Origin: Escherichia phage GA2A
Sequence record: NC_031943.1
DNA length: 40,470 nt
Strand: one strand, 5' to 3'
Shown: positions 1-40,470 of the stretch, piece by piece
Layout: each line of letters opens with the position of its first letter
Position numbering within the stretch: position 1 is the stretch's first letter
Translations under genes and position numbers: made by a program
Notes under the pieces: generated by a model
Databases searched by the model: none
The model's input: only the letters and a program-made list of their open reading frames with translations
Told to the model about the DNA's origin: nothing

Positions 1-165
1 ATCTCACAGTTCAAGAACCTCAAGTCTCCCCATAGGCCCTCTTTCAGTCCAGACCAAAGGCCCTACCCCAGTCTATCATAAGGTTAGACCGATGGTCAAG
101 ACTTCAGGTCAACGATAGGTTGTGGCTATTGGTGGTGGTGGAGACGATAGGTTGGGACTATTGGT
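1..165. repeat. Left direct terminal repeat
   Basis: 1-165 is identical to 40274-40438 at the other end of the window; T7-like genomes carry a terminal redundancy of about this size. Confidence 0.85.
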
Positions 166-22310: not shown

Positions 22311-22333
22311 TAAACTATCACTATAGGGAGACC
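22311..22333 (+). promoter_or_regulatory. Phage promoter (phi10 position) with long 5' UTR
   Basis: TAAACTATCACTATAGGGAGA, closest to the canonical strong T7 class III start GGGAGA; ~105-nt leader with 8-bp inverted repeat TATTACTT/AAGTAATA. Confidence 0.85.
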
Positions 22334-22433: not shown

Positions 22434-23480
22434 ATGGCAAACGTTCCGGGTCAGAAAATTGGTGCAGACCAAGGTAAAGGCCAATCTAGTGCAGACCAGC
22501 TAGCACTGTTCCTTAAGGTCTTCGCTGGTGAAGTCCTGACAGCTTTCACTCGCCGCTCTGTTACCGCTGACAAACATATTGTCCGCACCATTCAGAATGG
22601 TAAGTCCGCACAGTTCCCGGTAATGGGTCGCACCTCCGGTGTGTATCTTGCTCCCGGTGAGCGCCTGAGCGATAAGCGCAAGGGTATTAAACACACTGAG
22701 AAGGTTATCACCATTGATGGTCTGCTGACCTCTGACGTGATGATTTTCGACATCGAAGACGCCATGAACCACTATGACGTGGCGGGCGAGTATTCCAACC
22801 AGCTCGGTGAGTCTCTGGCTATCGCTGCTGATGGCGCGGTACTGGCTGAGATGGCGATTCTGTGTAACCTCCCTGCCGAATCTGACGAGAACATCGCTGG
22901 TCTGGGCAAGGCGTCCGTTCTGGAAGTTGGTACTAAAGCCGACCTGAACACTCCAGCCAAGCTGGGTGAAGCGATCATTGGTCAACTGACCATCGCACGT
23001 GCTAAGCTGACTGCCAACTACGTGCCTGCTGGCGACCGCTACTTCTATACTACGCCTGACAACTACTCCGCGATTCTGGCGGCTCTGATGCCTAACGCTG
23101 CTAACTACGCTGCGCTGATTGACCCTGAGACGGGCAACATCCGTAACGTAATGGGCTTCGTTGTGGTTGAAGTTCCTCACCTGACTCAGGGTGGTGCTGG
23201 CGAAACTCGTGGTGAAGATGGTATCTCCATTGCTTCCGGTCAGAAACACGCATTCCCGGCTACCTCCAGCTCTACCGTTAAGGTTGCTCTGGACAACGTT
23301 GTGGGCCTGTTCTCTCACCGTTCCGCTGTTGGTACTGTTAAGCTGCGCGACTTGGCGCTGGAACGTGACCGCGACGTCGATGCTCAGGGCGACCTGATTG
23401 TCGGTAAGTACGCTATGGGTCACGGCGGTCTGCGTCCAGAAGCAGCAGGCGCTCTGGTTTTCAGCCCAGCAGCTCCGTAA
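22434..23480 (+). CDS. 10A: Major capsid protein 10A
   Basis: 348 aa; LALFLKVF.GEVLTAF, GKSAQFPV, HTEKVITIDGLLT, EDAMNHYDV, LMPNAANYAALIDPE, AMGHGGLRPEAAGA match T7 gp10A. Confidence 0.97.
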   Translation: MANVPGQKIGADQGKGQSSADQLALFLKVFAGEVLTAFTRRSVTADKHIVRTIQNGKSAQFPVMGRTSGVYLAPGERLSDKRKGIKHTEKVITIDGLLTSDVMIFDIEDAMNHYDVAGEYSNQLGESLAIAADGAVLAEMAILCNLPAESDENIAGLGKASVLEVGTKADLNTPAKLGEAIIGQLTIARAKLTANYVPAGDRYFYTTPDNYSAILAALMPNAANYAALIDPETGNIRNVMGFVVVEVPHLTQGGAGETRGEDGISIASGQKHAFPATSSSTVKVALDNVVGLFSHRSAVGTVKLRDLALERDRDVDAQGDLIVGKYAMGHGGLRPEAAGALVFSPAAP

Positions 23481-23746
23481 CAACCCTTAAGATGACCGTG
23501 GCTTCGGCTCCGGTCGTCCAGACTGTTAGTGGCATTGTAGGAACGAGCATTAAGGTTGAACTCACAGAACTTGTGGATGTGACCGATTGGTCTCTGCTGG
23601 CTGTAAGTGTCGACGACCCTGCCGTAACCTACAGTCGCCGCACCAATAGTCTGTACTTTAAGGCTTCGGTGGCTGGTGACTACCAGATTATCATCAGCTA
23701 TGATGGCTCTCCTGTGAGAACCTTCAAGCTGCAAGTCACAAACTAA
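23456..23746 (+). CDS. 10B: Probable 10B C-terminal extension reached by programmed -1 frameshift
   Basis: Slippery heptamer GGTTTTC at 23456-23462 near the 10A stop; the -1 frame stays open to 23746 and encodes a beta-rich, Ig-like segment. Confidence 0.5.
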   Translation, partial: GFQPSSSVTTLKMTVASAPVVQTVSGIVGTSIKVELTELVDVTDWSLLAVSVDDPAVTYSRRTNSLYFKASVAGDYQIIISYDGSPVRTFKLQVTN

Positions 23747-23750
23747 TTGA

Positions 23751-23789
23751 AACCCCTTGGGTGCCTTCGGGTGCTTGAGGGGTTTTTTG
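23751..23789 (+). terminator. Tphi-like terminator for phage RNAP
   Basis: AACCCCTTGGGTGCCTTCGGGTGCTTGAGGGGTTTTTTG, GC stem plus U-run, same place and form as T7 Tphi. Confidence 0.9.
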
Positions 23790-23803
23790 CTTAAGGAGGG
23801 CCT

Positions 23804-24370
23804 ATGGCTCAGTACATTCCGCTTAACGCTAATGACGACTTGGATGCTGTCAACGATATGCTGGCTGCTATCGGTGAACCAGCAGTCCTACAGCTCGACG
23901 AAGGGAACGCAGACGTCTCTAACGCTCAACGTATCCTGCATCGTGTCAATCGTCAGGTCCAAGCTAAAGGCTGGAACTTTAACATCAACGAAGCTGCTGT
24001 CCTGACGCCTGATGTCCAAGACAATAAGATTCGATTCCTACCGTCTTACCTTCGGGTCATGACTGCGGGCGCTACCAGCTACTACAGTAACATGGGTGGC
24101 TATCTCTATGACCTCAGCACTCAGTCGACAACCTTCACCGGGCCGATTACAGTCGAGCTGGTGGAGATGAAGCCATTCTCCGAGATGCCTGTGGTCTTCA
24201 GGGACTACATCGTGACCAAGGCAAGCCGTGAGTTCAACGCTAAGTTCTTCGGCAGCCCTGAGTCTGAAGCATACCTGAGGGAGCAGGAAGCAGAGCTGTA
24301 CCAGCAGGTGATGGAGTACGAGATGGACACCGGGCGATACAACATGATGTCTGACATCGGGAGGGACTAA
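23804..24370 (+). CDS. 11: Tail tubular protein A
   Basis: 188 aa; blocks NDMLAAIGEP, GNAD..NAQRIL.RVNRQVQAKGWNFNI, FRDYIVTKASREFN, MEYEMD match T7 gp11. Confidence 0.95.
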   Translation: MAQYIPLNANDDLDAVNDMLAAIGEPAVLQLDEGNADVSNAQRILHRVNRQVQAKGWNFNINEAAVLTPDVQDNKIRFLPSYLRVMTAGATSYYSNMGGYLYDLSTQSTTFTGPITVELVEMKPFSEMPVVFRDYIVTKASREFNAKFFGSPESEAYLREQEAELYQQVMEYEMDTGRYNMMSDIGRD

Positions 24371-24597
24371 TGGCCACTCATAACCTCAAGATTAACCGAG
24401 AGTTCTTTGGTCCAGTGAAGCTGGGACTGAAGACCGCTGAGCTGAGACTCAACGACAGGGACTACAAGGTGGGCGATTGGCTCATCCTGAACGAGTACGA
24501 CAACGGGTACACTGGACAGCAGGTAGCACGTAAGGTTGTCCACGTGGCTGACGTAGGGTCCATAGCTCCGGGTTACGTCCTGATGAGCTGCATTTAA
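24370..24597 (+). CDS. Small ASCH/PUA-like protein inserted between tail tube genes
   Basis: 75 aa; ATG overlaps gp11 stop (TAATG) with RBS GGGAGGG; motif F.PVKLGLKTAELRLNDRDYKVGDWLILNEYD; no gene here in T7. Confidence 0.55.
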   Translation: MATHNLKINREFFGPVKLGLKTAELRLNDRDYKVGDWLILNEYDNGYTGQQVARKVVHVADVGSIAPGYVLMSCI

Positions 24598-40273: not shown

Positions 40274-40470
40274 ATCTCACAGTTCAAGAACCTCAAGTCT
40301 CCCCATAGGCCCTCTTTCAGTCCAGACCAAAGGCCCTACCCCAGTCTATCATAAGGTTAGACCGATGGTCAAGACTTCAGGTCAACGATAGGTTGTGGCT
40401 ATTGGTGGTGGTGGAGACGATAGGTTGGGACTATTGGTGGTGGTGGAGACGATAGGTTGGGACTATTGGT
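40274..40470. repeat. Right direct terminal repeat plus one extra partial tandem unit
   Basis: 40274-40438 identical to 1-165; 40439-40470 repeats the preceding unit GGTGGTGGAGACGATAGGTTGGGACTATTGGT. Confidence 0.85.

What the first reader, a model, noticed from the sequence alone, without database searches (positions are those of the whole stretch)
23440..23746. Programmed -1 frameshift site GGTTTTC giving a capsid 10B with an Ig-like tail
Six codons before the 10A stop lies GGTTTTC (23456-23462), which to my recollection is the T7 gene 10 slip site. The -1 frame is open for a further ~95 codons and encodes a beta-strand-rich segment (TVSGIVGTSIKVELTELVDVTDWSLLAVSVDD...YQIIISYDGSPVRTFKLQVTN) resembling bacterial Ig-like domains. 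The terminator hairpin starts 5 nt after this frame's stop. A minor capsid species could therefore display an Ig-like domain on the head surface.
Basis: partly seen in the sequence, partly recalled or inferred. Interest (0 to 1): 0.5.

Follow-up and report, generated by a model that had tools for sequence, protein, structure and literature searches.

The report
Frameshifted capsid protein with Ig-like tail
This T7-like phage very probably makes a minor, longer version of its head protein by a programmed -1 ribosomal slip, adding an antibody-like domain to the head surface. The mechanism is already known from T7 and T3, and near-identical cases are annotated in close relatives.

Summary
The window is a complete Kayfunavirus (T7-like) genome. 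Gene 10A (22434-23480, 348 aa) carries G_GTT_TTC at 23456-23462 in the same register and position as T7's shift site. The -1 frame is open across it and adds 94 codons, giving a 437-aa, 46.1-kDa 10B.

- **Slip site tracks the extension.** In 82 distinct capsid 3' ends picked blind to the slip site, 56 of 57 with NGTTTTC carry a recognised -1 extension. All 8 with the synonymous GGTCTTC carry none.
- **Synonymous constraint.** CTG GTT TTC shows no synonymous change in 24 capsid genes.
- **The extension is translated.** dN/dS in the -1 frame is 0.11-0.32.
- **Not a separate gene.** ATG 23492 has no Shine-Dalgarno sequence, is not conserved, and lies in a hairpin stem.

Citrobacter phage CR8 has a 75%-identical extension, annotated as a -1 frameshift 10B with a note of mass-spectrometry matches.

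New here: the extension is a swappable cassette between the slip site and the T-phi terminator, and a conserved hairpin lies about 28 nt downstream of the slip site.

The parts
22319..22331 (+). Core of the phage RNA-polymerase promoter upstream of gene 10 (phi10 equivalent), CACTATAGGGAGA
   Evidence: This is the only exact match in the window. There are 6 matches with up to 2 mismatches, against 0.97 expected. Its position matches promoter phi10 in the T7 and T3 records.
22434..23480 (+). Gene 10A, major capsid protein, 348 aa, 36.5 kDa
   Evidence: ORF list. Pfam Gp10A-like E=2.6e-105. PDB capsid chains 9vvq, 7y23 and 2xvr match, E from 1e-209 to 1e-144, and cover only the 10A part.
23456..23462 (+). 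Slippery heptamer G_GTT_TTC (Val342-Phe343), site of the -1 shift
   Evidence: Same codons as T7. No synonymous change in 24 capsid genes. NGTTTTC co-occurs with an extension in 56 of 57 loci, and all 8 GGTCTTC loci have none, Fisher p=1.8e-9.
23408..23480 (+). Overlap zone where both the 0 frame and the -1 frame are open
   Evidence: The -1 frame is open across the slip site in all 20 relatives first examined.
23462..23518 (+). 10B-specific linker, 19 residues (QPSSSVTTLKMTVASAPVV), predicted disordered
   Evidence: AlphaFold pLDDT is 52-57 over the first 20 residues. Sequence and length vary between extension classes.
23519..23743 (+). Ig-like (filamin/Big_1-like) 7-strand beta-sandwich domain, residues 20-94 of the extension, followed by the TAA at 23744-23746
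23492..23494 (+). ATG that gene callers use to call a stand-alone 84-aa ORF; probably not a real start
   Evidence: Anti-SD duplex +0.6 kcal/mol, against a median of -7.3 for the window's ORFs of 100 aa or more. Absent in most Kayfunavirus relatives. Base-paired in the hairpin.
23491..23518 (+). RNA hairpin about 28 nt 3' of the shift site (UUCG loop); candidate long-range stimulator or initiation block, role unknown
   Evidence: -17.1 kcal/mol, z=-3.5, 0 of 200 shuffles fold as well. A hairpin sits at the same offset in every extension class. The Przondovirus version has 18 bp, 98.5% of cells paired and two pairs with compensatory changes.
23749..23788 (+). T-phi-type terminator for the phage RNA polymerase (17-bp stem, UUCG loop, T run), with the CCCC tract at 23753-23756
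   Evidence: Fold -25.2 kcal/mol. Terminator-like scan hit. Identical to the K1F terminator and homologous to T7 T-phi. A CCCC in T7's T-phi is reported to affect gene 10 frameshifting (PMC5009743).

Best explanation
Most ribosomes translating gene 10 stop at TAA 23478 and make the major capsid protein 10A. A minority slip back one nucleotide on G_GUU_UUC (23456-23462), with tRNA-Val in the P site re-pairing GUU to GGU and tRNA-Phe in the A site re-pairing UUC to UUU. They then read 94 more codons and make 10B (437 aa, 46.1 kDa). 10B co-assembles into the T=7 shell through its complete 10A body. It displays a flexible 19-residue linker and a 75-residue Ig-like beta sandwich on the outside of the head.

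Shown here: the signal, the open overlapping frame, purifying selection on the extension, the coupling of slip site and extension across relatives, and the predicted fold.

Inferred by analogy: the shifting itself and its roughly 10% level (figure recalled from work on T7, not from a paper read here), the outward display, and the function. The likely function is weak, accessory adhesion to surface or mucus glycans, as proposed for other phage Ig-like domains, and it is dispensable for plaque formation. The extension behaves as an exchangeable cassette bounded by the slip site and the T-phi terminator.
For: - Same heptamer, register and codon position as T7 (PMC5009743).
- The -1 frame is open across the site in all 20 relatives. 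Nineteen of those 20 keep G_GTT_TTC; PP81 has A_GTT_TTC.
- CTG GTT TTC shows no synonymous change in 24 capsid genes, although only 7.8% of conserved 4/6-fold codons are invariant and the Ala/Gly codons just upstream vary at 0.5-0.7.
- In 82 distinct IMG/VR loci chosen by an upstream motif blind to the site, NGTTTTC goes with an extension in 56 of 57. All 8 loci with the synonymous Val codon GTC (GGTCTTC) lack one.
- dN/dS is 0.11-0.32 in the -1 frame.
- The ATG has no SD (+0.6 against a median of -7.3 kcal/mol), is not conserved, and is buried in a hairpin.
- The CR8 record annotates 10B by a -1 frameshift at 'tttt' with 'matches in mass spectrometry analysis'. Its extension is 75% identical to this one.
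- In Kvp1, programmed -1 frameshifting at TTTTCA was concluded from MS peptides of the distinct 10B C-terminus (PMC2579914).
- K1F gene10b, at the same slip site, tolerates a GFP fusion that labels virions (PMC6277420).
- Fold evidence.
Against: - There is no protein evidence for this phage. The CR8 mass-spectrometry note is a record annotation, not a published junction peptide.
- G_GUU_UUC is an imperfect X_XXY_YYZ. No classical stimulator lies 5-9 nt downstream, and no Rfam frameshift element matches.
- The heptamer count in the window is not itself unusual.
- The loci in the co-occurrence test are phylogenetically related. The 8 GGTCTTC loci may be a single clade, so the Fisher p overstates independence.
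- The Ig-like assignment rests on a predicted model. No Pfam family passes its cut-off.
- The adhesion function is untested.
Confidence: 0.86

Rival explanations
1. The 84-codon ORF 23492-23746 is a separate gene ('10.1'). It would be translated from its own ATG, or by termination-reinitiation 11 nt after the 10A stop, giving a free 9-kDa Ig-like decoration protein.
For: An ATG is present in this sequence class. Gene callers and many GenBank records call a stand-alone ORF. PHROGs holds it as an 82-residue family. The short distance to the 10A stop would allow coupling.
Against: There is no SD: +0.6 kcal/mol against a median of -7.3. The ATG sits in the hairpin stem. Most Kayfunavirus relatives have no Met there, and callers pick different, truncating starts. 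The frame is open and the peptide conserved upstream to the slip site in all relatives. This model cannot explain the synonymous constraint on the slip site or its loss in extension-less phages.
Confidence: 0.06
2. The shift to the -1 frame is made at the RNA level. The phage or host RNA polymerase would slip on the T4 run and produce a subpopulation of mRNAs lacking one U.
For: The site contains a short homopolymer run. Transcriptional slippage produces alternative products in some phages and IS elements (reviewed in PMC5009743).
Against: Four Ts is much shorter than the runs known to give productive slippage (general knowledge, not tested here). The homologous T7 event is treated as ribosomal in the review. 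The G at the first heptamer position is kept in 53 of the 57 NGTTTTC loci. That fits tRNA re-pairing, whereas RNA polymerase slippage would need only the T run.
Confidence: 0.03
3. The -1 ORF is an unexpressed relic or chance open frame, and only 10A is made.
For: T7 10B is dispensable. Some relatives have lost or truncated the extension (ZG49 and the GGTCTTC group).
Against: dN/dS is 0.11-0.32 over dS up to more than 1. There are 453 phage records with the domain, in several Studiervirinae genera. The model is a confidently folded domain. The slip site is kept exactly where an extension exists.
Confidence: 0.03

Closest known systems
Bacteriophage T7 gene 10A/10B programmed -1 ribosomal frameshift (Condron, Atkins and Gesteland 1991; reviewed in PMC5009743)
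   Same: Same heptamer G_GUU_UUC at the homologous Val-Phe codons a few codons before the 10A stop. Same gene order: promoter phi10, gene 10, T-phi, gene 11. A T-phi terminator with a CCCC tract follows the 10B stop.
   Different: T7's 10B-specific tail (53 aa beyond the 10A stop, PMC11482910; 56 codons in the -1 frame from the slip site) is low-complexity and not Ig-like, and has no detectable similarity to this extension. Here 94 codons encode a linker plus a folded beta sandwich.
Citrobacter phage CR8 10B (NC_023548, genus Caroctavirus), plus the 'minor capsid protein' ORFs of KP32-like Przondovirus, PP81 (Pektosvirus) and many Kayfunavirus records
   Same: Homologous extension: CR8 is 75% identical, the others 43-54%. 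Same slip site. CR8 is annotated as a joined -1 frameshift CDS with a mass-spectrometry note.
   Different: This phage is not in the collection; its nearest record, EV136_1 (94% nt), annotates no 10B. Most records list the extension as a stand-alone hypothetical or minor capsid ORF. Neither the records and papers consulted nor PHROGs call it Ig-like.
Bacteriophage T3 / phiYeO3-12 10B with a Big_2 Ig-like extension (Fraser et al. 2006, as cited in PMC5009743 and in the Peru-2 preprint)
   Same: [quoted passage not shown]
   Different: T3 shifts on CCC_AAA_G two to three codons further on. Its domain is a clear Big_2 / phrog_215 member, with no sequence or profile similarity to this one (blastp no hit, hhalign probability 0.2%).
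Escherichia phage K1F gene10b (type species of the same genus)
   Same: Same slip site and an identical terminator. The gene10b C-terminus tolerates GFP and adhesin fusions that end up on the virion.
   Different: K1F carries a 48-codon T7-type, non-Ig tail. The two tails are alternative cassettes at one locus.

Membership tests
T7-type gene 10 programmed -1 ribosomal frameshift | Slippery heptamer G_GUU_UUC in the 0-frame register near the 3' end of the major capsid gene | tested here: met
   23456-23462, codons CTG GTT TTC. The position is homologous to T7.
T7-type gene 10 programmed -1 ribosomal frameshift | The -1 frame is open across the shift site and extends past the 10A stop | tested here: met
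   Open from 23408 to 23746, with 94 codons after the shift.
T7-type gene 10 programmed -1 ribosomal frameshift | Selective maintenance of the signal: synonymous constraint, and co-occurrence with an extension | tested here: met
   No synonymous change in 24 genes. NGTTTTC with an extension in 56 of 57 loci; GGTCTTC with an extension in 0 of 8. The phylogenetic non-independence caveat applies.
T7-type gene 10 programmed -1 ribosomal frameshift | Two capsid species sharing an N-terminus, with a junction peptide spanning the shift | not testable with these tools
   Indirect only: the CR8 record's mass-spectrometry note, MS peptides of the Kvp1 10B-specific C-terminus, and K1F g10b::gfp virions.
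T7-type gene 10 programmed -1 ribosomal frameshift | Long-range 3' stimulator involving CCCC in the T-phi terminator | tested here: inconclusive
   The terminator with CCCC (23753-23756) is present 291 nt 3' of the site. Its effect cannot be tested. A conserved hairpin at +29 is an additional candidate.
Phage Ig-like surface domains (Big_2, I-set and FN3 classes, as I recall them from Fraser et al. 2006) | Seven-strand, two-sheet beta-sandwich fold | tested here: met
Phage Ig-like surface domains (Big_2, I-set and FN3 classes, as I recall them from Fraser et al. 2006) | Significant match to one of the sequence families (Pfam Big_2, Big_3, I-set, fn3) | tested here: not met
   The best hit is Big_3 at 15.9 bits, below the 21.2 cut-off, and only 2 of 14 family members touch it. 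There is no similarity to T3's Big_2 tail. Weak profile links exist to Big_1/Invasin_D3/filamin (hhalign 62% over 28 columns) and to BACON (11%).
Phage Ig-like surface domains (Big_2, I-set and FN3 classes, as I recall them from Fraser et al. 2006) | C-terminal attachment to a virion structural protein, often through a programmed frameshift | tested here: met
   Fused to the capsid C-terminus by the -1 frame. The general pattern is described in PMC5009743.
Stand-alone capsid decoration protein gene | Own conserved start codon with a ribosome-binding site | tested here: not met
   No SD. The ATG is not conserved and is paired in a hairpin.

The most novel reading that the evidence does not exclude
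The locus between the conserved slip site and the T-phi terminator acts as a plug-in slot. At least three unrelated surface modules are exchanged there by recombination: a T7-type tail, a Big_2 domain, and this unclassified filamin-like Ig domain in several divergent subtypes. This would tune what the phage head sticks to. Expression of the slot would depend on an unconventional stimulator, a covarying hairpin about 28 nt downstream of the shift site, possibly acting together with the terminator. That would be a new class of long-spacer -1 frameshift stimulator.
Probability: 0.2. Interest if true: 0.5.

Novelty: new member of a known kind. Interest (0 to 1): 0.27.

Why it matters
The practical gain is in annotation. 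Of the 40 best DNA matches listed, most carry this extension as a stand-alone 'hypothetical' or 'minor capsid' ORF, and PHROGs files it as 'unknown function'. It is in fact the C-terminal domain of a frameshift-derived capsid protein.

For phage biology and engineering, it identifies a natural display site carrying an Ig-like module on the heads of Kayfunavirus, Przondovirus and related phages that infect E. coli, Klebsiella, Enterobacter, Salmonella, Shigella and Citrobacter. This bears on mucus or capsule adherence, on immunogenicity of therapeutic phages, and on capsid display design.

The conserved downstream hairpin offers a handle on the long-unexplained distant stimulator of T7 gene 10 frameshifting.

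Tried and rejected
- **Pfam and Rfam.** Scans gave no family above threshold for the extension and no known frameshift element.
- **PDB sequence search.** It covers only the 10A body, so there is no solved structure of the extension.
- **Word-index homology search.** It returned only 15 short ORF-type proteins.
- **Exhaustive profile search.** Beyond the family itself it gave only marginal hits to BACON, Big_1 and He_PIG repeat proteins. hhalign could not confirm these as homology.
- **Homology to T3's Big_2 tail.** Rejected.
- **Classical stimulator.** I looked for a structure 5-9 nt after the slip site and for an upstream SD-like element and found nothing convincing.
- **Cross-class RNA alignment.** Covariation was therefore counted within the Przondovirus class only.
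- **Condron et al. 1991.** The paper is not held. T7 details come from the 2016 review, the T7 record, or my own recollection where marked.
- **Heptamer frequency.** It is not evidence by itself: 1 observed against 4.1 expected.

Full report
**What the window is.** The 40,470-base window is a complete T7-like phage genome.
- It has a 165-nt direct terminal repeat (1-165 and 40274-40438).
- It carries phage-polymerase promoters of the CACTATAGGGAGA type.
- The capsid region is 94% identical in DNA to Enterobacter phage EV136_1 and 84-90% identical to many Kayfunavirus genomes such as Dev2, SFPH2, GW1 and Pisces.
- Gene 10A is 22434-23480 (348 aa). Its Pfam match is Gp10A-like, E=2.6e-105.
- It matches solved T7-family capsid chains only over residues 1-347.

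**The observation.**
- GGTTTTC lies at 23456-23462, in register G_GTT_TTC (codons 341-343 are CTG GTT TTC). That is six codons before the TAA at 23478.
- The -1 frame is open from 23408 to the TAA at 23744-23746.
- A shift on the heptamer adds 94 codons, giving a 437-aa, 46.1-kDa protein against 36.5 kDa for 10A.
- A 17-bp T-phi-type terminator hairpin (23749-23786, -25.2 kcal/mol) follows within 2-5 nt of that stop.
- The heptamer count is not unusual: 1 found where 4.1 are expected. The argument therefore rests on context and comparison.

**Is it the T7 site?** Yes. In the T7 record the homologous codons read GTG GTT TTC AAA GTG GAG TAA, and 10B is annotated as a joined CDS. The Atkins et al. 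2016 review gives G_GU as the X_XX of the T7 gene 10 heptamer (PMC5009743). It also records an unexplained long-range effect of a CCCC in the transcription terminator more than 200 nt downstream. The window has such a CCCC at 23753-23756, 291 nt from the site.

**Comparative evidence for a functional signal.**
- *First set of relatives.* Twenty loci covering Kayfunavirus, Przondovirus (KP32) and Pektosvirus were examined. Nineteen keep G_GTT_TTC in the same register, 16-25 nt before the 10A stop; PP81 has A_GTT_TTC. The -1 frame is open across the site in every one.
- *Synonymous constraint.* In a codon alignment of 24 capsid genes, CTG, GTT and TTC show no synonymous variation. Only 7.8% of fully conserved 4/6-fold codons and 30% of 2-fold codons are invariant. 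The four Ala/Gly codons just upstream vary in about half or more of sequence pairs (0.49-0.68).
- *A blind test.* I scanned IMG/VR with a motif for the upstream peptide GGLRPEAAGA that does not include the heptamer. Of the 82 distinct loci:
  - 39 carry this Ig-type extension: 37 with GGTTTTC, one with CGTTTTC and one with AGTTTTC.
  - 18 carry a T7-type tail, 14 of them with GGTTTTC.
  - 15 carry a T3-type Big_2 domain, mostly behind xxA_AAG sites.
  - 10 carry nothing, and 8 of those read GGTCTTC. That is the same Val-Phe peptide with a synonymous codon that abolishes the U run.
  - NGTTTTC against GGTCTTC, scored for presence of an extension, gives Fisher p=1.8e-9. The loci are related, so this p overstates independence.

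**The extension is translated, and not from its own start.**
- Pairwise dN/dS in the -1 frame is 0.11-0.32, with dS from 0.09 to above 1.
- The ATG at 23492 has no Shine-Dalgarno complement: +0.6 kcal/mol against a median of -7.3 for the window's ORFs of 100 aa or more, -7.3 for gene 10 and -12.6 for gene 11.
- Most Kayfunavirus relatives have no Met there. Gene callers start the 'ORF' at different, truncating positions.
- tblastn similarity runs upstream of the ATG into the annotated capsid CDS.
- The ATG is base-paired in a stable hairpin.

**Direct precedent.**
- Citrobacter phage CR8 (Caroctavirus) has the same slip site and an extension 75% identical to this one. Its record annotates 10B as 'predicted translation by a -1 internal frameshift', marks 'tttt', and notes 'matches in mass spectrometry analysis'. 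The genome announcement itself does not discuss it.
- For Kluyvera phage Kvp1, programmed -1 frameshifting at TTTTCA was concluded from MS peptides of the distinct 10B C-terminus (PMC2579914).
- In K1F, GFP and adhesins fused to gene10b end up on virions (PMC6277420; PMC13370021).

**What the extension is.**
- AlphaFold2, on a 16-sequence alignment, gives mean pLDDT 83. The first 19 residues are low-confidence (52-57). Residues 20-94 score about 90 and form seven strands.
- Foldseek agrees. Against PDB it finds lambda gpV (E=3.8e-4), filamin and chains of the phage N4 capsid reconstruction. Against BFVD it finds the PP81 'minor capsid protein', BIG2 phage proteins and T7M gp10B.
- At sequence level no Pfam family passes: Big_3 scores 15.9 bits against a 21.2 cut-off.
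- PHROGs holds the domain as phrog_7473, 'unknown function'.
- The exhaustive profile search of 1.84 billion representatives finds only 13 proteins at E of 0.001 or better. Six are short ORF-type members of the family and seven are marginal repeat proteins, of which three (BACON, Big_1/Invasin_D3, He_PIG) have clear Ig-like repeat annotations.
- hhalign gives 62% probability over 28 columns to a Big_1/filamin-like repeat, on the motif GDYxIxIxYDGSPV, and 11% to a BACON repeat.
- It is unrelated in sequence to T3's Big_2 tail.
- I therefore call it an Ig-like, filamin/Big_1-like E-set sandwich of an unclassified sequence family.

**Distribution and modularity.**
- tblastn finds the domain in 453 phage records (Klebsiella 285, Escherichia 52, Salmonella 35, Enterobacter 19, Pectobacterium 13, and others). 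In the rows listed it lies at or just after the capsid gene.
- K1F, the type species of the same genus, instead has a 48-codon T7-type tail between the same slip site and an identical terminator. ZG49 has a deletion that truncates the domain and removes the terminator.
- Against SFPH2 the window is 93-100% identical through gene 10A. Identity falls to 48-76% across the windows starting at 23453-23690, then returns to 95-100% in the terminator and the start of gene 11. Against EV136_1 the extension is 83-98% identical while gene 11 is about 70-80%.
- The extension is therefore a recombination cassette bounded by the slip site and T-phi. This is ordinary phage mosaicism, and it fits the view cited in the 2016 review that Ig-like domains move by non-homologous recombination, with those landing out of frame sometimes expressed by frameshifting.

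**Mechanism and function.**
- *Shown:* the signal, the frame, selection on the extension and the predicted fold.
- *Inferred from T7:* a minority of ribosomes shift. I recall about 10% from the T7 literature; no paper read here gives the figure.
- *Inferred:* 10B co-assembles with 10A. The capsid C-terminus, and hence the domain, faces outward. This is the basis of T7 and K1F capsid display.
- *Likely dispensable:* T7 10B is dispensable.
- *Function, by analogy only:* weak accessory adhesion to glycans.

**An unexplained extra.**
- No structure lies at the classical 5-9 nt spacing. A hairpin lies at 23491-23518, 28 nt after the heptamer (-17.1 kcal/mol, z=-3.5, 0 of 200 shuffles).
- Each sequence class of the Ig extension has a different hairpin at the same offset.
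- In the Przondovirus class it is 18 bp. On 15 distinct sequences 98.5% of cells pair, against 35-52% when the partners are slid. Two pairs change on both sides: A-U to G-C in 5 sequences and C-G to U-A in 4.
- Those changes alter linker residues (Thr to Val, Ser to Pro). This suggests that RNA pairing, not the peptide, is what is conserved.
- I could not determine whether the hairpin stimulates shifting at long range, blocks internal initiation or stabilises the mRNA.

**Verdict.** It is a new member of a known kind: a T7-type slip site combined with a T3-like outcome, built from a different and unclassified Ig-like domain. The value lies mainly in annotation, with one small open question, the hairpin.

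Noticed in passing
window 23491-23518; L015/L017 and the IMG/VR loci of alignment A3: A stable hairpin lies about 28 nt 3' of the shift site and buries ATG 23492. Analogous hairpins sit at the same offset in every extension class. In KP32-like phages the hairpin is 18 bp, with two compensatory pair changes that are non-synonymous in the linker.
   Followed up: partly
window 23483-23491 (ACCCTTAAG): The nucleotide motif ACCYTTAAG, or ACCTTTAG in the KP32-like class, is kept just 5' of the hairpin in the Kayfunavirus, CR8 and KP32-like classes. In one distant metagenomic relative (L025) it sits in a different codon register. It resembles the GCTTAAGGAGG ribosome-binding region of gene 11 after the terminator (23790-23800).
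   Followed up: no
window about 23453-23720 compared with L006 (SFPH2), L002 (EV136_1) and L023 (K1F): There are sharp mosaic boundaries. The extension is only 48-76% identical to SFPH2 while the flanking capsid gene and terminator/gene 11 are 93-100% identical. K1F has an unrelated T7-type tail between the same flanks.
   Followed up: yes
IMG/VR loci L030, L050, L068, L072, L077, L088, L093, L095: These T7-like capsid genes have no -1 extension and read GGTCTTC (Val codon GTC). That is a natural silent knock-out of the slip site.
   Followed up: partly
L024 (Escherichia phage ZG49, NC_047777): A deletion truncates the Ig-type extension after residue 53 of the 94-codon extension and removes the terminator stem. 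The -1 frame then runs on into unrelated sequence.
   Followed up: partly
window 1-165 and 40274-40438: An exact 165-nt direct repeat lies at the two ends, so the window is a whole T7-like genome with its terminal repeats.
   Followed up: partly
window 24370-24597 (+): A 75-aa DUF3850/ASCH-domain ORF (Pfam E=7.8e-20) is inserted between tail tubular protein genes 11 and 12. T7 has no gene there.
   Followed up: no
phage record OR786095.1 (hit H58): A 39,989-bp record labelled 'Staphylococcus phage MBBL139', host S. aureus, carries this enterobacterial T7-like capsid extension (48% identity). The host label is probably wrong, or the sample was contaminated.
   Followed up: no
window 18104, 21313, 22319, 27013, 39650 (+): Phage RNA-polymerase promoter cores (CACTATAGG...) recur on the + strand. 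The only exact consensus copy is the one in front of gene 10.
   Followed up: no
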